From: Minisyncoccia bacterium
GTDB lineage: Bacteria; Patescibacteriota; Minisyncoccia; Phycocordibacterales; DATDWN01
Assembly: GCA_049297675.1 (NCBI GenBank)
Contig: JBAQUS010000004.1
Location: 13,188 to 77,187, forward strand
Direction of reading: 5' to 3'
DNA: 64,000 nucleotides
The first letter of the stretch is position 1; every line of letters starts with the position of its first letter. Below the pieces are notes generated by a model, which was given only the letters and a program-made list of their open reading frames with translations, was not told the origin of the DNA and did not search any database. This document shows, piece after piece, positions 3,790 to 55,073 of this stretch. The position numbers and the translations under genes were made by a program.

Positions 3790-4083
3790 CTACCAAACCT
3801 GGAATATTTCTCTTGAGCCGGTCAGGTACATCTCAGTATAACCCTTCATTTTCTCCATAGCCTTTTTCATTTCTTTTGTCGGATTTTTGTATTTTTCCCA
3901 ACTTTTTTCATAAGCTGTCAGATCTTTATATTTTGAAACCATAATCACTCTGTTATATTGACCAGTCATGTCGGTCATTATGTTGACCAGATTCTTGTCA
4001 CTAGCCATCACCCCTTTAAATAACTTAGCCATTTTCGAAGCATTACCAGGCTTACAAACAAATACATCATGTACGATAATCAT
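3790..4083 (-). CDS. hypothetical protein (possible small alpha+beta barrel, Dabb/ABM-like)
   Basis: 97-aa ORF with no diagnostic motif. Fold guess only. Confidence 0.3.
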   Translation of the reverse strand: MIIVHDVFVCKPGNASKMAKLFKGVMASDKNLVNIMTDMTGQYNRVIMVSKYKDLTAYEKSWEKYKNPTKEMKKAMEKMKGYTEMYLTGSREIFQVW

Positions 4084-4142
4084 AATTATTTTGGTTAATG
4101 ATAATTATTTATTATACACCTTTTAGATAAATACAAAGTGAA

Positions 4143-5330
4143 CTATATAAAAGTTAGTGCCTTACCAAGCTTTCCGGCTCTCCCTGTTCGTCCTATTCTA
4201 TGTATGTAGTCTTCATGCGTGCCCGGTACATCGAAGTTAATAACGTGGCTTACATTTGGAATGTCCAAGCCTCTTGCCGCCACGTCTGTTGCAACGAGTA
4301 CTTTAGTTTTGTTTGCTTTAAAATCATTTAGAGCTCTCTGTCTTTGAGTTTGGTTTTTATTTCCATGTATTGCTGTGGAAGAGACTCCTCTTTTTGAGAG
4401 CTCATCAGATAGTTTTTGAACACCATGTTTTGTTCTAGCAAAAACCAAAACCTTCTCGAATTCATCTTTTGAGAGTAATCCGTGTAACACATCAACTTTT
4501 GGCAAATCGTTAACCCGTACAACATCTTGATGAACATTTTTTGCAGTATCACCTGTTTTAACAGAAATTCTAACAGGATTATTCAAAAATTCAGAAATAA
4601 GTTTTTCGATCTCATTTGAGAGCGTTGCTGAAAAGAAAAGGGTTTGTCTTTCTTTTGGCATTTTAGACATAACAAGTCTCATGTCGTTTATAAAACCCAT
4701 GTCTAGCATCCTATCTGCTTCATCCAAAACCACAGATCTATAATTTGAAATATTCAGAACTCCTCTTTCCATTAAATCTTTTATTCTTCCGGGTGTACCG
4801 ATTACAAATTGATTGTGAAATCGTAGCTGTCTTATTTGCCCGCCAATAGGTACTCCTCCAACAGCACAAACCGAATGAATGCCTACATTGCCAACAAATC
4901 CTTTAAGTTCATCGTTTATCTGTACTGCCAGTTCACGTGTCGGAGCTATGATAAGAACCTGCTCATTGACACCGTTGTAAACTTTATGAATAAGCGGAAT
5001 AAGAAAAGCCGCAGTTTTGCCTGTACCTGTATTTGCAATTCCAACAATATCTCTGCCAGCTAAAATCTCTGGAATGGCACCGTCTTGAATAGGTGTAGGT
5101 GTTACGTAACCTTTTTTTATAATGTTACCCTTCAAACCTTCCACAATTTTAAAGTCAGCAAAACTATGCTTAGGCACGAATGGTATTTCCTTCGCTACTT
5201 CAACTTTAGTATTTATATATCTAGAGACATCAATGCTTTTTTGTGCAAATTTTCCTCTACCTCTACCTCTTCCATTAAATCGTGGACTGGAAAAACTTCC
5301 ACGTCCAAAATTTCCATTATTTCTGTACAT
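4143..5330 (-). CDS. DEAD-box ATP-dependent RNA helicase
   Basis: Q motif/motif I (TPIQ..., ANTGTGKTAAF), PTRELA, GTPGR, VLDEADRMLDMGF, SAT, ARGLD, HRIGRTGRAG. RG-rich N-terminus. Confidence 0.9.
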   Translation of the reverse strand: MYRNNGNFGRGSFSSPRFNGRGRGRGKFAQKSIDVSRYINTKVEVAKEIPFVPKHSFADFKIVEGLKGNIIKKGYVTPTPIQDGAIPEILAGRDIVGIANTGTGKTAAFLIPLIHKVYNGVNEQVLIIAPTRELAVQINDELKGFVGNVGIHSVCAVGGVPIGGQIRQLRFHNQFVIGTPGRIKDLMERGVLNISNYRSVVLDEADRMLDMGFINDMRLVMSKMPKERQTLFFSATLSNEIEKLISEFLNNPVRISVKTGDTAKNVHQDVVRVNDLPKVDVLHGLLSKDEFEKVLVFARTKHGVQKLSDELSKRGVSSTAIHGNKNQTQRQRALNDFKANKTKVLVATDVAARGLDIPNVSHVINFDVPGTHEDYIHRIGRTGRAGKLGKALTFI

Positions 5331-44257: not shown

Positions 44258-44580
44258 TGAGTAACAGAAATCAAAGACTAAGTGAAATTCTAAGAGATTT
44301 AGGTGCCCGTTTTCTGCTTCTTAATGGAAACAAATCCTCGCTTTTAACCGTGACAAAATTGGAATTAACAAGGGATGGAAAAAATGCTACTATTTTCTTT
44401 ACGGTTTTTCCAAATAGTTTTGAAAAAACTGCTCTTGAGTTTGCCAAGAGAAAAAGAAGTGATTTTAGAGAATTCGTTAAGGAAAATTCAAAACTAGGAC
44501 ACCTCCCCCAGTTTGATTTTGAAATTGATCTAGGAGAGAAAAACCGTCAAAAAATTGACGGATTATTAAATGAAAAATGA
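44257..44580 (+). CDS. rbfA: ribosome-binding factor A
   Basis: Position directly after infB. RbfA-like N-terminus (NQRLSEILRDLGARFLLL) and length. Confidence 0.65.
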   Translation: MSNRNQRLSEILRDLGARFLLLNGNKSSLLTVTKLELTRDGKNATIFFTVFPNSFEKTALEFAKRKRSDFREFVKENSKLGHLPQFDFEIDLGEKNRQKIDGLLNEK

Positions 44581-44650
44581 CCTAGTCGCCAAGTGGTAAG
44601 GCAAAGCTCTGCAAAAGCTTTATACGGCGGTTCGATTCCGCCCTAGGTCT
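44579..44650 (+). tRNA. tRNA-Cys (anticodon GCA)
   Basis: Manual fold: acceptor gacctag/ctaggtc, anticodon stem aagct/agctt with loop CTGCAAA, T arm ggcgg-ttcgatt-ccgcc. Starts 2 nt inside the rbfA stop codon. Confidence 0.75.
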
Positions 44651-44719
44651 CCCTAAAACATTTACACAGTAAGTGTTTGGGTGAACAATTCATCCAGAGA
44701 GTTGTTGTAACCAAATTTT

Positions 44720-44801
44720 GCTCGGGTGGCGGAACTGGTATACGCGTTCGACTTAAAATCGAATCCCGAAAGGGGTATGGGTTCGATTCCCATCCCGAGC
44801 A
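44720..44801 (+). tRNA. tRNA-Leu (anticodon TAA), type II
   Basis: Acceptor gctcggg/cccgagc, anticodon stem ttcga/tcgaa with loop CTTAAAA, long variable arm, T arm atggg-ttcgatt-cccat. Confidence 0.8.
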
Positions 44802-44850
44802 CAAAATTGAAATAAACTAAAATTAATGTTATAAATTTAAAGTAAAATTT

Positions 44851-44923
44851 GCGCCTATAGCTCAGCTGGTAGAGCAGATCCCTCTTAAGGATAAGGTCCC
44901 AGGTTCGATCCCTGGTGGGCGCA
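44851..44923 (+). tRNA. tRNA-Lys (anticodon CTT)
   Basis: Acceptor gcgccta/tgggcgc (one G-U), D arm gctc-agctggta-gagc, anticodon loop CTCTTAA, T arm ccagg-ttcgatc-cctgg. Confidence 0.75.
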
Positions 44924-45119
44924 CAAGCCGAAATAATCTAAACTGCTTTAGATTATTTCGGACTTGTGCGCAACCAGAATATACCTTTAGGTGATTCTGG
45001 TTGAGGTTTCGGGCTTGTGCGTTATTAAAACATGTTTACTAAATAGTTTGAATCGTGGTTTCAAATTTGTGTGTGAAAGTAAGATAGCAATATAATGTTT
45101 TAGTTTCAAGTTAACAATT

Positions 45120-45203
45120 GGGCGAGTGGCGTAACAGTAGCCGCGCCAGTCTTAGGAACTGGTCCCGTAAGGGGTGGAGGTGCGATTCCTCTCTCGCCCA
45201 CCA
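45120..45203 (+). tRNA. tRNA-Leu (anticodon TAG), type II, CCA encoded
   Basis: Acceptor gggcgag/ctcgccc, anticodon stem ccagt/actgg with loop CTTAGGA, long variable arm, T arm ggagg-tgcgatt-cctct, then ACCA. Confidence 0.8.
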
Positions 45204-45490
45204 ATAAGGAACTAAAGGGTTCTGAATGCGAACCCAAGCGGAACGCCCGAAGGGCGTGCCAAGGATTTTCGCCTGATTCTGCAAGAGAATTCGGGAATTT
45301 TGGTGTGCAAGCGTGCAAGGTTTTTTCGTCGAGACGCAGGTTCGAGCCAAAGATTTCTTTGGCATAGACCTTTTTAGTAAAAAGATCTGAATCAGAAGCG
45401 ATTCTGTCCAATGATTCCGCGTCTTTTAGCCATTGTTGGAAAGGTGCGAGCCAATCATTCTACTTGTGTGAAAGAGAGGTCATTTCTCAT

Positions 45491-45515
45491 CTGTCAAACA
45501 TCCGATGTTTGACAG
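45491..45515. repeat. REP-like palindrome ctgtcaaacatcCgatgtttgacag (copy 1 of 3 around RAYT-1)
   Basis: Palindrome tgtcaaacatc-N-gatgtttgaca, also seen at ~46022-46046 and ~46241-46277. Confidence 0.65.
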
Positions 45516-45555
45516 TAAGTTAGGGGTAGATTATTACCGAAAATGTTAAAACTTT

Positions 45556-46215
45556 TTATACTTCAAAAGTTTTGGTGTCAGCTTTTACCCCGCTATTTTT
45601 TACAAATTTATAATATTCATATTTATCCTCAAATTGGTCTAATACTACTTCCCTTTTTAATATTTCCTTCCAACGATTTTCTGTAACGTAATCCTGATAG
45701 CTAGACCACTCATATTTTTCTGGATTATTACTCCAATGTGAAAGCTCTTTTGGATTTAAATGAACATACGCAGATAAATGTAGTAGTTGTTCATTACTTT
45801 CAACATGAACTGCTTTATACGGACCTTCAAAAAGATGCCCCGAAATTTTATATTTAGTATTGAAGTATTTTGTATACGAGTTAAGTACACGTTGCATATA
45901 TTTCCCAGTTCCACCTTCTTCATTTTCACGAACTATTAGATGAAAATGGTTAGTCATCATCGCAAAAGAAACTAGGTCAACGTATCTTTTCGAAATTATC
46001 TTTTCGTAATCATCACTGTTAATGTCAAACATCCGATGTTTGACATAATTCGAGATCATTCTTGAAACTTGAGGAAAAATAACATTTGCTTGAAAGTATA
46101 AAATGAGAAATAAAAATCTAATTCTATCTCTATCATCCTTGAAGATGATTTTCTTCCCAACTCCCCGATTATATATATGATAGTGTTCCCCAATTTCAAT
46201 ATTATCTCTTCTCAT
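45556..46215 (-). mobile_element. REP-associated tyrosine transposase (RAYT; IS200/IS605 TnpA-like HUH Y1 transposase)
   Basis: HYHIYNRGVGKKIIF, HUH motif MMTNHFHLIV, GHLFEGPYKAVHVESNEQLLHLSAYVHLNP (catalytic Tyr region). Flanked by, and containing, cognate REP palindromes. Confidence 0.8.
46022..46046. repeat. REP-like palindrome atgtcaaacatcCgatgtttgacat located inside the RAYT-1 coding sequence
   Basis: 25-bp perfect palindrome (single central base) seen in the sequence. Confidence 0.6.
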
Positions 46216-46240
46216 AACCTCTCATCCTACATGGACAACT

Positions 46241-46277
46241 ATCCATCTGTCAAACATCGGATGTTTGACAGATGGAT
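46241..46277. repeat. 37-bp REP palindrome atccatctgtcaaacatcGgatgtttgacagatggat, upstream of RAYT-1
   Basis: Perfect palindrome. Central base G versus C in the other copies, i.e. the opposite orientation. Confidence 0.65.
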
Positions 46278-46372
46278 AAGATCGATTATTAGAAAGGCTT
46301 GTGATTTTTTTAAAATCGATCTTGTTGCAAATAACGGCTTAATGGTGGGGGTTTTTTGACGACACCCTTGAC

Positions 46373-46401: not shown

Positions 46402-46499
46402 GGTGAGCAGAACGGGAGCGGCAATTCTTGCCCCTTTCGTCGCTCCTTGACACTCTAGTTTTTAGTTTACAAGCGCTTAAATGCGCAGAAGAGGTTAGC

Positions 46500-48038
46500 A
46501 TGTTTTACACTATCGCAATTTCCGTTCTCGTTGCAGTGACAATCTCGGTCCTGATCGTCGTCGGTTGGCTTATCTTCCGTGTCGTACAGACACGGAGGAG
46601 GACACCAGTCATTCATGATTGGGCGCGGAGGGATGATAGTCGCGAGACGACACCCTCCCCGACTCCTACCACGACATCCGGAATTGATGTCGACCTCACA
46701 CTGAATCCTCCCCGCCATACTCCGAAAGGAAATAGCGGAAGAGAACCCGAACCGTTGCCTCCATGTAAATGGAAAAAAGGCACGTTTCGTATCATCTACT
46801 GGGCGGTAATAATTCCGCTCGGAATGATATCTGTCTTCGTTCTGGAGTGGGGTATCCTATCGGGTCTGCCACTCACGTGGAATACCCTGTTGGAATTCAA
46901 CGCAACTTCAGTTGGGCTGACCCTTGTTGTTCTCTGGGTAGCCTACTTCTTGGACACATTCAAGATCGTCAAGTTCAATGAACTCGGCGGTCGTGTGGTA
47001 CTTGGTAGTTTCGAGTCCTACTCTGACGGGATAACTCTCGCACCGAGATGGATTACCGATCTGGTCAAGGTAACGAGAGCAACTGAAGAACTTGATCAAC
47101 CTCACAGTGACCCGTCAAAAATTTTCTGGGGAGACCTAAGCAAACTTCCAGACGGGAAAATCCCGGACGGTATGGTACTACCAATTCGTGTGCCATTCCT
47201 CCAGAGGTCAAGCGATGAAGACTTCGAAGTTCGCTGGCCACTTGAAACAGGAGAGGTCAAAACCAGAATTACAAAGGGCTATGACCTTCTTAGTGCAACG
47301 GATGCTCCTGTCGAGTATTCGATCGGAATCAGATTCATCGACATCCAACGTGTTATCGTTCGACTCAGGTCACTCAAAGCAGCCTACGACTTGGCAACAG
47401 ACTATGCAGAGACGCTCATAACGGGCACTTTGCAGAAAATGTCCGCTGCCGAAGCCCAAGTACTGAAACAGGAAATTTCAGTACATCTTGAGGAACAGAC
47501 GGACAACCGTGTTTTCCAATCGTACGGCTTCGTGATCGACTTCGTGACTTTGAAGTCAATCGGGACTTCGCACACAATCGCGGAATCGCGAGCGCAGGCG
47601 GCAGCAGCTGTCAACCTTGCGAATAAAACGGTTAGAGACGCAAAAGCTACAGCTAAGGCAACCGAACTTCAAGGTGCTTCTGTGGCTGGAGCTGAATTGG
47701 CACTACTCAACGCGAGGTCAGTAGGACTACGCAACATCGTCGACGCTGCGACTTCACGGTCAGGGGGAGTTGAACTCGCCAAAGCTATGGAAGCGGCACG
47801 CGCTATTCAGTTTGGCGCAGATTCGACAGTTGTTGTCCCAGGTGGAAACACTGGGGACGGTCTCGGACTCTTTGGCGCAGCGGTCGGTACAGCAATTAGT
47901 GCTTCGGCCGCACTTGGGAGAAAACCAGCTGGTGAAAAAGCTCTAACAGAGACCCAACCAGCACAACCAACAACTACTACAACACCCCCTGCACGTGGCG
48001 ACAGACGTGGCCATAAGAAAGGGGGTAAGAGGAGTTAG
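46500..48038 (+). CDS. GC-rich membrane protein with SPFH/band-7 (stomatin/flotillin-like) core and Ala-rich C-terminal tail
   Basis: Start taken at MFYTIAISVLVAV (TM). FKIVKFNELGGRVVLGSF...ITLAPRW resembles the SPFH start. AESRAQAAAAVNLANKTVRDAKATAKATELQGAS is an Ala-rich coiled region typical of HflK/flotillin tails. ~50-55% GC against a ~35% background. Confidence 0.4.
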   Translation: MFYTIAISVLVAVTISVLIVVGWLIFRVVQTRRRTPVIHDWARRDDSRETTPSPTPTTTSGIDVDLTLNPPRHTPKGNSGREPEPLPPCKWKKGTFRIIYWAVIIPLGMISVFVLEWGILSGLPLTWNTLLEFNATSVGLTLVVLWVAYFLDTFKIVKFNELGGRVVLGSFESYSDGITLAPRWITDLVKVTRATEELDQPHSDPSKIFWGDLSKLPDGKIPDGMVLPIRVPFLQRSSDEDFEVRWPLETGEVKTRITKGYDLLSATDAPVEYSIGIRFIDIQRVIVRLRSLKAAYDLATDYAETLITGTLQKMSAAEAQVLKQEISVHLEEQTDNRVFQSYGFVIDFVTLKSIGTSHTIAESRAQAAAAVNLANKTVRDAKATAKATELQGASVAGAELALLNARSVGLRNIVDAATSRSGGVELAKAMEAARAIQFGADSTVVVPGGNTGDGLGLFGAAVGTAISASAALGRKPAGEKALTETQPAQPTTTTTPPARGDRRGHKKGGKRS

Positions 48039-48040
48039 TC

Positions 48041-49396
48041 ATGCCTATCGTCGCAATCGTTATCGTACTCCTCTTTCTCGTCTTCGGACGAAGGAAAGGA
48101 AACGATAGCAAATACATTCGAGAGTCAGAGGTCGTTGATACCAAGCCAAATGGTAAAACAGAGACGGAAAAACACACTCTGTGGTGGCACGTCGGCCACT
48201 ACAAACTCGTGTGGCTACAGCACTGGAGGAGGTCAACAACCCTCCGTGTCTCCGCCGGACTGCTTGCTTTCGGGCTGGGAGTCTGGATCTTCCCTCTAAC
48301 GAGGGAATGGTGGAGTTCGCAGTGGGTTAGCTTCGGCCTTTACCTAATTGCCGCTCTGGCCATTATCTGCCTTGGGTTCATGTTGGGCCCGGCGCAGAAA
48401 GTGCCGTTCGAGTACAGGCTCCGGCCTTTATTGCTCATCATTGGAATTGCGATCGCAGTCTACGGACTCGGTGCGAACACCAAGTTCGGTCAGAGCACCT
48501 GGTCGTGGATCGCCTCTCACTTCGGGAGAACAGATGGAAACATCGGTCTAACTCCAGAGGAGACAGCTGACCTACCGGACGGGTTCGTCGAGAGCGACAA
48601 TCCGAACCACTGGTCAAACCACGTCACCGATGAAAATCGTGATGTGGTCAACATGGTCCGGGCTGCCGTCCAGAGCGAACTTGTCCCAACCCATTGGGAC
48701 CTCGCCATGCAGATCTGCGGTATGGAATCGGCATGGTTTCGTCAGTTCGATGAGGACGGTAATGTTCTCAGAAACGTCAAAAACAATGACGGGTCAATCG
48801 ACTACGGAGTCTGTCAGATCAACTCCATATGGATGAAAAAGTCCAAGGAGTTGGGAGATGGTTTCCGGATCGACGGGCCGGCTGACGAAAACATTCGAAT
48901 GGCCATGTGGATCTGGACGAATCCAGAAACACGTGGGCCACGCGAGTGGACCGGTACGTACAACACAGCTCTTGCTGTTGTCCGCAATGCGCGGACAACG
49001 CCAGAGACTGTGAACGCACGTCGAACTCCAGAGAGGTCACCGGCTGAACAGGAGACTGTTCAGGCTGGGATCGCACTGGTCTCACAAACTGAGCCAATTC
49101 ACCAGCAACGCAACCCACAAAGAGAGGTGTCTGTCACAGCCATGTTTCCAGGATGGGTCACCGACAAGTCCTCCATGACCTGCGACCTCGAAGAGGACGC
49201 AGAAATCGAGGCGGTCGGTGAGCCTGGAATATTTTACTGGAGTGACACAAACTTCAGTACGAACATCCTAAAGCCTGGAGAAACTGCTTCACTTGCTGGA
49301 TTCAAATGCGTTGCAGTCAGATACTTTTCCCCAACGTTTGGGGGAAAACTGACTGAGGGTCAGAGCCCTTACGCAATCGTGAGACGATACAAATAA
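48041..49396 (+). CDS. GC-rich polytopic membrane protein (4 TM) with C-terminal lysozyme-like / lytic-transglycosylase-like domain
   Basis: ICGMESAWFRQF...NNDGSIDYGVCQINSIWM. The catalytic E-S plus the DG-S-x-DYG-x-x-QIN-S motif is very close to the C-type lysozyme signature (FESNFNT...NTDGSTDYGIFQINSRWW) and compatible with the SLT E-S...GLMQ pattern. Confidence 0.55.
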   Translation: MPIVAIVIVLLFLVFGRRKGNDSKYIRESEVVDTKPNGKTETEKHTLWWHVGHYKLVWLQHWRRSTTLRVSAGLLAFGLGVWIFPLTREWWSSQWVSFGLYLIAALAIICLGFMLGPAQKVPFEYRLRPLLLIIGIAIAVYGLGANTKFGQSTWSWIASHFGRTDGNIGLTPEETADLPDGFVESDNPNHWSNHVTDENRDVVNMVRAAVQSELVPTHWDLAMQICGMESAWFRQFDEDGNVLRNVKNNDGSIDYGVCQINSIWMKKSKELGDGFRIDGPADENIRMAMWIWTNPETRGPREWTGTYNTALAVVRNARTTPETVNARRTPERSPAEQETVQAGIALVSQTEPIHQQRNPQREVSVTAMFPGWVTDKSSMTCDLEEDAEIEAVGEPGIFYWSDTNFSTNILKPGETASLAGFKCVAVRYFSPTFGGKLTEGQSPYAIVRRYK

Positions 49397-54341: not shown

Positions 54342-54362
54342 TTACTAGGGTAACCCTAGTAA
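54342..54362. repeat. REP-like palindrome ttactagggtaaccctagtaa (downstream flank of RAYT-2), followed by ttactagtaa
   Basis: Perfect 21-bp palindrome with core ctagggtAaccctag. A cognate copy lies at 55051-55073. Confidence 0.65.
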
Positions 54363-54365
54363 TTA

Positions 54366-55043
54366 CTAGTAACTATCTTTATATTCTAACCAATCAGTTA
54401 TATTATCATTAAAATCAAAGATACTTGAAAAATACTCAGGGAAATTAGTTTTGTCTAAAATCATACCCGCTTCCCTCTTTTGTCCGACATAATCTAAATA
54501 ACTAGAACAATCATAATTCGATAGAAATTTTTTAGCTTTACTAATGTTTTTTATTCCAGATTCTTTCCAGTCATATTCAATTAATTTAACTGGATTAAGA
54601 TGAATGTAAGAAAATAAATATTTCAAATATTCATCAGAGTCAGCATGTTCTGCTTTATATGTACCCTGAAACAACGAACCCACTCTATCATTTAATTTAT
54701 TAAAGTAGGTAGAATAGCCCGTAGTCAATTTTTCCATAAACATAGCTGTACCGCCCTCAACAATTTCTCTAACAAGAATATGAAAATGATTTGGCATTAA
54801 AACCCATGCTCCTATTGCAACGAGTTGCTCGCCCCTGTTAATATCTTTCAATGGTAAGTCTATTGTTGTGCTGTACCTATAAGGAAGAGTATTGTTTGCA
54901 AGATATAAGAGTCTAATAAATCTCTTATAATCATTCTGTGAAATAAAAATATCGCGCTTTTCAACTCCTCGATTATATATATGGTAAAACTCGCCTTCAG
55001 ATATGACTATTTTTCTTTGCATAGAAGCACTATATACTAACAA
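54366..55043 (-). mobile_element. REP-associated tyrosine transposase (RAYT; IS200/IS605 TnpA-like), second paralog
   Basis: FYHIYNRGVEKRDIF, HUH LMPNHFHILV, GSLFQGTYKAEHADSDEYLKYLFSYIHLNP. Flanked on both sides by ctagggtaaccctag REP palindromes. Confidence 0.8.
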
Positions 55044-55050
55044 CTCTCAT

Positions 55051-55073
55051 CTTACTAGGGTAACCCTAGTAAG
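55051..55073. repeat. REP-like palindrome cttactagggtaaccctagtaag (upstream flank of RAYT-2)
   Basis: Perfect 23-bp palindrome seen in the sequence. Confidence 0.65.

What the first reader, a model, noticed from the sequence alone, without database searches (positions are those of the whole stretch)
45488..46280. RAYT-1 with cognate REP palindromes, one embedded inside its own coding sequence
The IS200-like HUH transposase has the HFHLIV motif and a conserved Tyr region. It is accompanied by three copies of tgtcaaacatc-[C/G]-gatgtttgaca: downstream at ~45491-45515, inside the ORF at ~46022-46046, and a 37-bp extended perfect copy upstream at ~46241-46277. This is the classical REP/RAYT association. 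An intragenic REP copy is unusual and may mark a recent REP insertion or a regulatory or recoding structure.
Basis: seen in the sequence. Interest (0 to 1): 0.55.

Follow-up and report, generated by a model that had tools for sequence, protein, structure and literature searches.

The report
Transposase-like gene carrying its own hairpin
A single-copy HUH (RAYT-type) transposase-like gene in a Patescibacteria genome is bracketed by two copies of a DNA hairpin and carries a third copy inside its reading frame; hundreds of relatives share this layout with compensating base changes that dictate the encoded amino acids, so it is an old built-in feature, not a recent insertion.

Summary
Three exact copies of TGTCAAACATC-S-GATGTTTGACA lie downstream of, inside and upstream of a 219-aa Y1/HUH gene (45556-46215, minus strand). 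None occurs elsewhere in the 64 kb.

The REP/RAYT reading is largely right, with caveats. The protein's best structural match is the E. coli RAYT-REP complex. Each of two paralogous genes in the window has its own flanking palindrome. In related Patescibacteria genomes the same palindrome also occurs as scattered solitary copies, many in frame inside housekeeping genes such as UvrC, LigA, MnmA and Tgt. However, copy number is low, there is no GTAG tag, and NCBI's RAYT model is not passed.

The "recent insertion" idea is wrong. In 57 of 79 homologous genes sampled without reference to the palindrome, a hairpin sits at the same codons (58-64). It shows many compensatory changes, so paired amino acids co-vary (V/D, V/N, I/N, K/F, E/F, Q/L, H/V, S/A, P/G). 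Synonymous codon choice there is atypical. The 3-nt loop has flipped repeatedly (CGA/TCG = Arg/Ser). Each locus's flanking copies match its own internal variant.

The upstream copy supplies the promoter -35 box, which suggests autoregulation (inferred). In-frame REPs in RAYT genes have been reported before, so this is a new variant of a known kind.

The parts
45491..45515 (.). Downstream cognate hairpin (12+1+12 palindrome), 41 nt after the stop codon. With 45488-45490 it forms the left arm of a perfect 28-nt inverted repeat.
45556..46215 (-). RAYT-like Y1/HUH transposase-family gene, 219 aa. HFH is at 45940-45948 and the catalytic-type Tyr (YVHLNP) at 45766-45768.
46022..46046 (.). Intragenic hairpin (11-bp stem, 3-nt loop). 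It encodes residues 58-64 (VKHRMFD), which lie in a low-confidence surface loop between helix A and helix B of the predicted structure.
46240..46278 (.). Upstream cognate hairpin, a 39-nt perfect palindrome (19+1+19), inverted relative to the other two copies. Its gene-proximal arm contains the -35 hexamer.
46224..46253 (-). Promoter-like site: TTGACA (46253-46248, inside the upstream hairpin), 18 nt, TAGGAT (46229-46224), then 8 nt to the ATG.
   Evidence: the same arrangement in homologs

Best explanation
This is a REPtron/TIRtron-like unit. A single-copy, vertically inherited RAYT-type Y1 HUH nuclease gene sits together with its cognate DNA hairpin, here called PAL (11-bp stem, 3-nt loop).

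Shown by the data:
- Two PALs bracket the gene as an inverted repeat.
- A third PAL lies in frame at codons 58-64, in a surface loop.
- This three-site layout is ancestral to a large Patescibacteria family.
- The three copies of each locus co-evolve.
- The internal copy is held as a hairpin by DNA-level constraint strong enough to fix codon choice, make paired amino acids co-vary and flip the loop codon (Arg/Ser, Arg/Pro, Leu/Gln).

Inferred mechanism:
- The protein binds PAL when it is extruded as a hairpin on single-stranded DNA, as E. coli RAYT and IS608 TnpA do, and perhaps nicks or rejoins it.
- The upstream PAL contains the -35 hexamer of the gene's promoter, so binding or cruciform formation there would repress the gene's own transcription.
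- The internal PAL began as an old in-frame REP insertion into a tolerant loop. It is kept as a further cis site for the same protein, and as a copy of the hairpin that cannot be separated from the gene.
- Rare RAYT-dependent events seed or maintain solitary PALs elsewhere, including in frame within housekeeping genes.
For: Protein:
- Y1_Tnp is above its cut-off. HUH and Y---NP motifs are present.
- The AlphaFold model (pLDDT 75.8) is closest to 4ER8, the E. coli RAYT bound to a REP hairpin (E 9.8e-5), followed by IS608 and ISDra2 TnpA.

Architecture:
- The same three copies are seen in L001 and L004.
- In 79 complete homologs fetched by peptide patterns far from the motif, 57 keep a hairpin of at least 9 bp at nt ~170.
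- An upstream copy within 3 mismatches of the locus's own internal variant is present in 50 of 55 loci, and a downstream copy in 37 of 54.
- The mean is 2.5 mismatches to the locus's own flanks against 6.6 to other loci's flanks.

Hairpin constraint:
- Internal copy: 83.8% of cells are paired against at most 48% when the partners are slid. There are 66 double-change cells against 20.2 +/- 3.6 in shuffles (0/500).
- Flanking copies: 84.6% paired, 13 of 14 pairs compensatory, 185 double-change cells against 77 (0/500).
- Codon use is atypical: V58 uses only GTC or GTT, V62 is GTG in 48 of 52, and K59 is AAA in 55 of 55. The synonymous third base of codon 58 pairs with the first base of codon 64 (C-G 19, T-A 46, other 9).
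- The loop is CGA in 26 and TCG in 22, and 16 of 48 nearest-neighbour pairs are discordant.

Promoter:
- TTGACA-18-TAGGAT lies in the upstream PAL.
- In homologs the PAL ends 25-31 nt or 15-18 nt before the ATG, with a TATAAT-like box in between.

Cognate specificity:
- A second paralog (54366-55022, 38% identical) is flanked by its own palindrome, ACTAGGGT-A-ACCCTAGT.

Dispersal:
- The scan found 71 genome stretches, nearly all Patescibacteria. About 50 are solitary copies with unrelated flanks.
- 22 solitary copies lie inside ORFs of at least 200 aa. All ten of these tested are real housekeeping genes.
- There are 13 extra copies in 246 kb around homologous loci, and they share the locus-specific variant.

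Not an active insertion sequence:
- Relatives 85-91% identical in nucleotide sequence are syntenic.
Against: - No biochemical or expression data exist. Binding and cleavage of PAL by this protein are inferred from fold and arrangement only.
- PAL is a near-perfect palindrome, so symmetric changes would also fit a dimeric double-strand-binding factor.
- No solitary copy is present in this 64-kb window, and this genome was not in the scanned genome collection, so dispersal is shown only in relatives.
- About 28% of homologs have lost the internal hairpin while mostly keeping the flanking ones, so the internal site is dispensable.
- The canonical GTAG guide is absent and the NCBIfam RAYT equivalog cut-off is not reached.
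- Covariation counts are not corrected for phylogeny.
Confidence: 0.68

Rival explanations
1. PAL is an operator or promoter element for a dimeric double-strand DNA-binding regulator, or a conserved host factor. The transposase-like gene is merely one regulated target, with three operators as in lac O1-O3. Hairpin formation and HUH chemistry play no part.
For: - PAL is a near-perfect palindrome that contains TTGACA on both strands.
- The upstream copy overlaps the promoter.
- Solitary copies at orthologous sites in UvrC, PyrF and RibF are 23/23 identical although their flanks are only 30-80% identical, as expected for a site under host-level selection.
- Symmetric changes fit a coevolving dimer as well as a stem.
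Against: - Many solitary copies lie deep inside housekeeping coding regions, where an operator makes little sense.
- Stems of the flanking copies extend beyond the conserved core with locus-specific complementary bases (pairs 1-4). That is a property of a stem, not of a fixed protein site.
- Shared non-Watson-Crick positions (T·G, A·C) are copied in all three sites of a locus.
- The loop flips repeatedly.
- Every gene of two paralogous families has its own palindrome, and the fold is that of hairpin-binding nucleases.
Confidence: 0.13
2. The cassette (hairpin, gene, hairpin; about 790 bp) is an autonomous IS200-like insertion sequence. The flanking hairpins are its left and right ends, and the internal copy is an alternative or abortive end.
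For: - The size is compact and the hairpins are subterminal.
- Sequence similarity between distant homolog loci starts and stops at the hairpins.
- The genomic neighbourhood differs between distant relatives.
- Indels lie directly next to the hairpins in L053 compared with L085.
Against: - There is one copy of this gene in the window, and no identical copies in different contexts among about 100 loci.
- Relatives 85-91% identical are syntenic.
- The tyrosine motif is Y---NP, the RAYT class, not the IS200 type Y---Q. The protein is 219 aa rather than about 150.
- The ends are in inverted rather than direct orientation.
Confidence: 0.07
3. The conserved structure acts in the mRNA. The internal and downstream hairpins would control translation or pausing, RNase processing or 3'-end stability, as proposed for transcribed REPs.
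For: - Both the internal and downstream copies are transcribed if the predicted promoter is used.
- The downstream copy lies 0-40 nt after the stop codon in homologs, which is the typical position of mRNA-stabilising REPs (PMC3733652).
- The CAT/GTG variant gives a U·G wobble on the sense strand.
Against: - The upstream copy lies at or upstream of the -35 box and would not be transcribed, yet it is the best conserved of the three (50 of 55).
- Non-canonical cells are not biased towards the sense strand. There are about 29 G·U-type cells against about 41 A·C-type cells.
- Loop orientation is not conserved.
- No intrinsic-terminator T-run is present.
Confidence: 0.08
4. The intragenic copy is a recent, accidental REP insertion, or a chance similarity, specific to this genome.
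For: It is identical to the flanking copies in the window.
Against: - It sits at the same position in 57 of 79 homologs that are 52-71% identical.
- Zero chance matches are expected.
- The protein length is unchanged relative to homologs.
Confidence: 0.01

Closest known systems
REPtron: E. coli TnpA-REP (RAYT) with flanking REP/BIME (Nunvar 2010; Ton-Hoang 2012; structure 4ER8)
   Same: - It is a single-copy Y1 HUH gene with the Y---NP motif.
- It is flanked by inverted copies of a short hairpin that also occurs elsewhere in the genome.
- 4ER8 is the best structural match.
   Different: - There is no GTAG foot.
- There are a few copies rather than hundreds.
- The stem is a near-perfect palindrome without a bulge.
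- The protein is 219 aa with an extra loop and a C-terminal extension.
- NCBIfam scores 27.8 bits against a cut-off of 80.
- A third copy is fixed inside the gene.
TnpAY1 subclass 2.1 / Bertels group 1 RAYTs and TIRYT/TIRtrons (PMC6006769, PMC5581495, PMC3733652)
   Same: - The motif signature NH[YF]H, FQ, Y[IV]HLNP and a length of about 220-240 aa match Table 1 of PMC6006769.
- The flanking repeats are low in copy number. Group 1 flanking 16-mers occur about 12 times per replicon.
- The flanks form a terminal inverted repeat, 28 nt here.
   Different: - Subclass 2.1 was reported to have no REP-like hairpins, and its TIRs share GGGGWSAS, which is absent here.
- Here the repeats are self-complementary hairpins.
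- Membership rests on motif comparison only, because no subclass model was available.
TnpAY1 subclass 2.4 RAYTs with in-frame REP insertions in their own gene (PMC6006769)
   Same: - REP copies lie inside the tnpA-REP reading frame without disrupting it.
- They sit in a peripheral loop.
   Different: [quoted passage not shown]
- Here there is one hairpin upstream of the HuH motif at a fixed codon position across the family, with compensatory evolution and loop flips.
Intragenic REPs / Rickettsia palindromic elements in host genes (PMC3733652; Ogata 2000, from my own knowledge)
   Same: Solitary PALs are translated in frame within housekeeping genes, notably repair and tRNA-modification genes (UvrC, LigA, MnmA, Tgt). 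Di Nocera reported the same bias.
   Different: - PAL adds only about 8 residues (VKHxxFD or SNxxCLT).
- It is 23/23 identical at orthologous sites in genomes whose flanks have diverged to 30-80% identity.
IS200/IS608 TnpA with subterminal hairpins
   Same: - The fold is the HUH/Y1 fold.
- Hairpins lie at both ends of a unit of about 0.8 kb.
   Different: - The tyrosine motif, protein length and copy number differ.
- The hairpins are in inverted orientation.
- Close relatives are syntenic.

Membership tests
Y1 HUH transposase superfamily (Pfam PF01797) | Pfam Y1_Tnp score above the gathering cut-off | tested here: met
   30.1 bits against a cut-off of 23.
Y1 HUH transposase superfamily (Pfam PF01797) | HUH motif and a catalytic Tyr on a following helix; the fold of IS608 TnpA / RAYT | tested here: met
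   - HFH lies at residues 90-92 and Y150 lies in helix 141-153.
- The top Foldseek hits are 4ER8, 2VJV and 2XM3.
RAYT / TnpA-REP (class 2 of PMC6006769) | Tyrosine motif Y---NP rather than Y---Q | tested here: met
   YVHLNP is present. Y150 and N154 are invariant in A1.
RAYT / TnpA-REP | Gene flanked by cognate palindromic repeats in inverted orientation | tested here: met
   - The window has a perfect 28-nt inverted repeat.
- Flanking copies are present in most of 55 evaluable homolog loci.
- The paralog has its own pair.
RAYT / TnpA-REP | The same repeat is dispersed in many copies through the host genome | tested here: inconclusive
   - None lies outside the cassette in this 64 kb.
- This genome is not in the scanned collection.
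- Related MAGs carry about 2-5 solitary exact copies.
- 13 copies were found in 246 kb near homologous loci.
- The repeat is dispersed, but at very low copy number.
RAYT / TnpA-REP | GT[AG]G guide tetranucleotide at the 5' foot of the hairpin | tested here: not met
   The flanks of the copies show no GTAG or other conserved tag.
RAYT / TnpA-REP | Low copy number and vertical inheritance, i.e. housekeeping-like behaviour | tested here: met
   - There is one gene of this family in the window, plus one 38%-identical paralog.
- Relatives 85-91% identical are syntenic.
RAYT equivalog (NCBIfam NF047646 REP_Tyr_transpos) | Score above the curated cut-off | tested here: not met
   27.8 bits against a cut-off of 80.
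IS200 (subclass 1.1) | About 150 aa, Y---Q motif, several near-identical copies per genome | tested here: not met
   - The protein is 219 aa with YVHLNP.
- There are no identical copies in different contexts.
TIRYT / subclass 2.1 (Bertels group 1) | Motifs NH[YF]H, FQ, Y[IV]HLNP; about 238 aa with a C-terminal tail | tested here: inconclusive
   The motifs NHFH, LF[EQ]G and Y[VI]H[LR]NP and the length of 219 aa agree with Table 1. No subclass HMM or reference sequence was available to score against.
TIRYT / subclass 2.1 | Flanking TIRs with the GGGGWSAS motif; no REP-like hairpins | tested here: not met
   The flanks are self-complementary hairpins without GGGGWSAS.
Subclass 2.4 RAYTs with internal REPs | [quoted passage not shown] | tested here: not met
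   The internal hairpin lies at codons 58-64, upstream of HuH (residues 90-92), and has no GTAG.

The most novel reading that the evidence does not exclude
The embedded hairpin is not a tolerated passenger but a functional cis element. Under this reading the gene writes its own DNA substrate into its reading frame, so that nucleic-acid pairing rules dictate seven codons and loop inversions toggle an amino acid.

PAL would then be a conserved chromosomal signal across the phylum, since it is 23/23 identical at orthologous sites in housekeeping genes. It would be serviced by a domesticated RAYT for a host function, for example processing hairpins on single-stranded DNA at replication forks. The internal copy would guarantee that nuclease and substrate are inherited together.
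Probability: 0.3. Interest if true: 0.8.

Novelty: new variant of a known kind. Interest (0 to 1): 0.6.

Why it matters
What RAYTs do, and how REPs are copied and kept uniform, is still unsettled.

This family offers a compact natural experiment: three cognate sites in cis, one of them locked into a reading frame. DNA-level selection or homogenisation can be read directly from codon choice, co-varying amino acids and loop flips.

It also extends REP/RAYT-type systems to the reduced genomes of Patescibacteria. It shows that these short hairpins live largely inside genes there, adding stereotyped 8-residue peptides to housekeeping proteins.

For annotation, genes named 'transposase' in these genomes are probably domesticated single-copy genes. 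The conserved peptide VKHRVFD should not be read as a protein functional motif.

Tried and rejected
- Rfam at gathering threshold found only tRNAs in the window.
- A PDB sequence search with the family profile gave only a marginal ISDra2 hit, E 0.11. Fold comparison was needed.
- Literature searches found no description of this system. I searched for the palindrome, the peptide, and RAYT plus Patescibacteria.
- A test for strand bias of wobble against A·C mismatches, meant to separate an RNA role from a DNA role, was inconclusive.
- I looked in the window for PAL-free orthologs of the PAL-bearing housekeeping genes, in order to define an empty site. There were none.
- Comparison among fetched loci showed PAL-coded segments in variable loops. 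Some add 5-8 aa and some leave the length unchanged, so no target site could be defined.
- No conserved flanking tag is visible around the solitary copies.
- An ungapped flank comparison first suggested different contexts for near-identical genes. BLAST then showed synteny with indels, so I dropped the mobility claim.
- The intrinsic-terminator scan found none.
- Recoding was considered and rejected, because the frame is open and collinear with homologs.
Full report
**1. Observation**

The 23-mer TGTCAAACATC-S-GATGTTTGACA occurs exactly three times in the window: at 45492-45514, 46023-46045 and 46248-46270. There is no further match with up to three mismatches, and none is expected by chance.

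The full palindromes are:
- 45491-45515 (12+1+12), downstream;
- 46022-46046 (11-bp stem, 3-nt loop), intragenic;
- 46240-46278 (19+1+19), upstream.

The two outer copies form a perfect 28-nt inverted repeat. As single-stranded DNA all three fold into hairpins of -9.3 to -18.2 kcal/mol, and no shuffle folds as well.

They surround and enter a 219-aa ORF on the minus strand, 45556-46215. The ORF has HFH at residues 90-92 and YVHLNP at Y150. It passes Pfam Y1_Tnp with 30.1 bits against a cut-off of 23. It does not pass NCBI's RAYT equivalog, scoring 27.8 bits against 80. The upstream palindrome is 39 nt, slightly longer than stated.

**2. The protein and its family**

The protein is 100% identical to a protein named 'transposase' from a Minisyncoccia (Patescibacteria) MAG. 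It has more than 1,200 detectable relatives, almost all from Patescibacteria groups.

An AlphaFold model (mean pLDDT 75.8) has these elements:
- strand 11-18;
- helix A 28-40;
- a long poorly defined loop, 41-66;
- helix B 67-75;
- the HUH strands;
- the Tyr helix 141-153.

Its best PDB match is 4ER8, the E. coli RAYT bound to a REP hairpin (E 9.8e-5). IS608 and ISDra2 TnpA follow. Sequence-only comparison with PDB was marginal.

The motifs NHFH, LF[EQ]G and Y[VI]H[LR]NP and the length agree with subclass 2.1 of the TnpAY1 classification, which corresponds to Bertels group 1. I could compare only with the published table, not with a model.

**3. The intragenic copy is old and conserved as a hairpin**

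It encodes V58-K-H-R-M-F-D64. VKHR[V/M]F[D/N] is conserved in the family alignment, and the protein is collinear with its homologs. So it is not a recent insertion.

Two homolog loci (69% and 67% identical) show the same three copies. Each locus has its own variant of the palindrome in all three places.

For an unbiased sample I fetched 80 metagenomic loci using peptide patterns that lie far from the motif. Results:
- Of 79 complete genes, 57 have a palindrome of at least 9 bp at the same offset, nt ~170.
- The variants differ by compensatory changes, so the paired amino acids co-vary:

| Paired codons | Amino acids |
|---|---|
| GTC/GAC | V..D |
| GTT/AAC | V..N |
| ATT/AAT | I..N |
| ATC/GAT | I..D |
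| ACC/GGT | T..G |
| AAA/TTT | K..F |
| GAA/TTC | E..F |
| CAA/TTG | Q..L |
| CAC/GTG | H..V |
| CAT/ATG | H..M |
| AAC/GTT | N..V |
| AGC/GCT | S..A |
| CCC/GGG | P..G |

- On 70 distinct sequences, 83.8% of cells pair, against at most 48% when partners are slid. Seven of 11 pairs show double changes. There are 66 double-change cells against 20.2 +/- 3.6 in shuffles, 0 of 500.
- Synonymous codon use at the motif is unlike the rest of the gene. V58 uses only GTC or GTT (0 of 56 GTA or GTG). V62 is GTG in 48 of 52. K59 is AAA in 55 of 55. H60 and N64 prefer the C-ending codons that are in the minority elsewhere.
- The synonymous third base of codon 58 pairs with the first base of codon 64: C-G 19, T-A 46, other 9. 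Selection on the protein cannot explain this.
- In the window itself, M62 (ATG) replaces the family's usual V (GTG). This is exactly the change that restores a Watson-Crick pair with H60 = CAT.

**4. Loop flips**

The central codon is CGA in 26 sequences, TCG in 22 and CGG in 8. CGA and TCG are reverse complements, as are CGG/CCG and CTG/CAG, which are seen in other homologs. The resulting amino-acid alternations are Arg/Ser, Arg/Pro and Leu/Gln.

Sixteen of 48 nearest-neighbour pairs differ in loop state, including proteins 82-84% identical, and intermediates are almost absent. The loop, or the whole palindrome, has therefore been inverted or overwritten repeatedly. This indicates DNA-level dynamics at a hairpin inside a gene.

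**5. Flanking copies**

- An upstream copy within 3 mismatches of the locus's own internal variant is present in 50 of 55 evaluable loci.
- A downstream copy is present in 37 of 54.
- The mean is 2.5 mismatches to the locus's own flanks against 6.6 to other loci's flanks.
- Shared imperfections (T·G in the CAT/GTG type, A·C in the AAC/GCT type) recur in all three copies of a locus.
- Among 93 flanking copies, 84.6% of cells pair and 13 of 14 pairs carry compensatory changes, with 185 double-change cells against 77 in shuffles. This includes locus-specific extensions beyond the conserved core.
- Where the flanks acquired changes incompatible with the codons (for example TGTTGGACAC..GTGTCCAACA), the internal copy lags behind.
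- In the 22 genes without a good internal hairpin, most still have flanking hairpins.

The flanking pair is therefore the general feature. The internal copy is ancestral to this subfamily but dispensable.

In more distant representatives of the superfamily the loop segment is degenerate or absent. This fits an ancient in-frame insertion into the helix A-helix B loop.

**6. Promoter overlap**

- On the gene strand the upstream palindrome provides TTGACA, followed by 18 nt, TAGGAT and 8 nt to the ATG.
- In homologs the palindrome ends either 25-31 nt or 15-18 nt before the ATG, with a TATAAT-like box just upstream of the start.
- Anything that binds or extrudes this palindrome would therefore interfere with transcription initiation. 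This is an inference from position only.
- The downstream copy lies 0-40 nt after the stop codon.
- In some homologs the third reading frame of the palindrome supplies the C-terminus and the stop codon (…CQTSGV*).

**7. Is it a dispersed repeat?**

A scan of one genome per species for TGTCAAACAYCNGRTGTTTGACA found 71 stretches, nearly all in Patescibacteria MAGs. About 19 are at homologs of this gene. About 50 are solitary copies on other contigs of the same MAGs, with unrelated flanks.

Of the solitary copies, 31 lie within ORFs of at least 80 aa and 22 within ORFs of at least 200 aa. They are read in the two open frames, as VKH[RPQL][VM]FD or SN[TI][GR]CLT. Ten of these ORFs were scanned against Pfam and all are real housekeeping genes: UvrC, PyrF, two MnmA, RibF, PurL, LigA, two Tgt and RsmA.

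At orthologous sites in UvrC (three genomes), PyrF (two) and RibF (two) the palindrome is 23/23 identical, while the adjacent 120 nt are only 30-80% identical.

Around homolog loci, 13 more copies occur in 246 kb. They carry the locus-specific variant, and one locus has a cluster of six.

In this window there is no solitary copy, and this genome was not in the scanned collection. Dispersal is therefore shown only for relatives, and at very low copy number.

**8. Cognate specificity within the window**

A second Y1 gene lies at 54366-55022 on the minus strand (38% identical; Y1_Tnp 23.9 bits). It is flanked by two copies of a different palindrome, ACTAGGGT-A-ACCCTAGT, at 54344-54360 and 55054-55070. 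It has no internal copy. Each gene has its own hairpin, as described for REPtrons.

**9. Not an active insertion sequence**

Loci with identical genes have identical flanks, so they are the same genomes sampled repeatedly. Loci 85-91% identical in the gene are syntenic at 78-84% identity, with indels, some directly next to the hairpins. This is the housekeeping-like behaviour described for RAYTs.

**10. Comparison with what is known**

- REPtrons and TIRtrons, meaning RAYT or TIRYT genes flanked by cognate repeats, are established.
- REPs translated inside host genes are documented, with a bias to excision-repair, ligase and tRNA enzymes.
- In-frame REPs inside RAYT genes themselves were reported for subclass 2.4. 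[quoted passage not shown]

What I did not find described:
- a family-wide hairpin fixed at one codon position upstream of HuH;
- its co-evolution with the flanking copies;
- codon-level covariation and loop-flip amino-acid polymorphism;
- any such system in Patescibacteria.

The element also fails two features of canonical REP/RAYT: the GTAG foot and high copy number.

**11. Verdict**

The REP/RAYT interpretation is supported in kind, though not as 'classical'. The 'recent insertion' idea is refuted.

Best explanation, confidence about 0.68: this is a domesticated RAYT-type nuclease with three cognate hairpin sites in cis. The upstream site overlaps its promoter. The internal site is an ancient in-frame copy held by DNA-level constraint.

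Binding and cleavage of the hairpin by the protein, autoregulation, and RAYT-dependent seeding of solitary copies are all inferred, not shown.

Noticed in passing
window 54344-55070: A second RAYT-like Y1 gene lies at 54366-55022 on the minus strand (38% identical to the first; Y1_Tnp 23.9 bits). It is flanked by two exact copies of a different palindrome, ACTAGGGT-A-ACCCTAGT, at 54344-54360 and 55054-55070. The upstream copy extends to a 29-nt palindrome. There is no internal copy.
   Followed up: partly
window 46428-49396: Two ORFs (536 aa and 451 aa) have 51-53% GC in a genome of about 36% GC. They lie directly next to the upstream hairpin and opposite a cluster of four tRNA genes (44579-45203). 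There is no Pfam family apart from a weak MFS hit. This may be a foreign island.
   Followed up: partly
L023 3932-4013 and L034 ~450-536: A type III hammerhead-like motif (RF00008, 41.3 bits, below the gathering score of 48.5, E 8e-8) ends 4 nt before a solitary copy of the palindrome. It occurs in two different MAGs, with compensatory changes in a stem and a conserved ~35-nt block after the palindrome.
   Followed up: partly
L099 ~4039-4946: Six variant copies of the locus-specific hairpin are clustered within 1.2 kb downstream of the homologous gene, in a BIME-like array.
   Followed up: no
L040 4435-4457, L073 7344-7366 (proteins P0006, P0007): In some homologs the downstream hairpin is read in its third frame. 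It supplies the C-terminal residues CQTSGV and the TGA stop codon.
   Followed up: no
L020 7319-7460: There are two solitary hairpins 95 nt apart. The second is followed by a near copy of the homolog's promoter and ATG (attttgcgataaaagaaatataatatatgttATG) but no gene, so this may be a remnant or a solo end.
   Followed up: no
L012 7371, L021 323, L049 6051, L048 99: Solitary hairpins in four contigs share a longer conserved, partly palindromic context: gccacagcttcaaagaaacacc-PAL-cttttatttacttgaagctatggc.
   Followed up: no
L053 vs L085: Between syntenic relatives, indels of about 500-660 bp lie immediately outside the upstream and downstream hairpins. The hairpins may be hot spots for rearrangement.
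   Followed up: no
L062 4905, L066 5724: Hairpin copies abut tRNA genes, within about 5-20 nt of a tRNA end.
   Followed up: no
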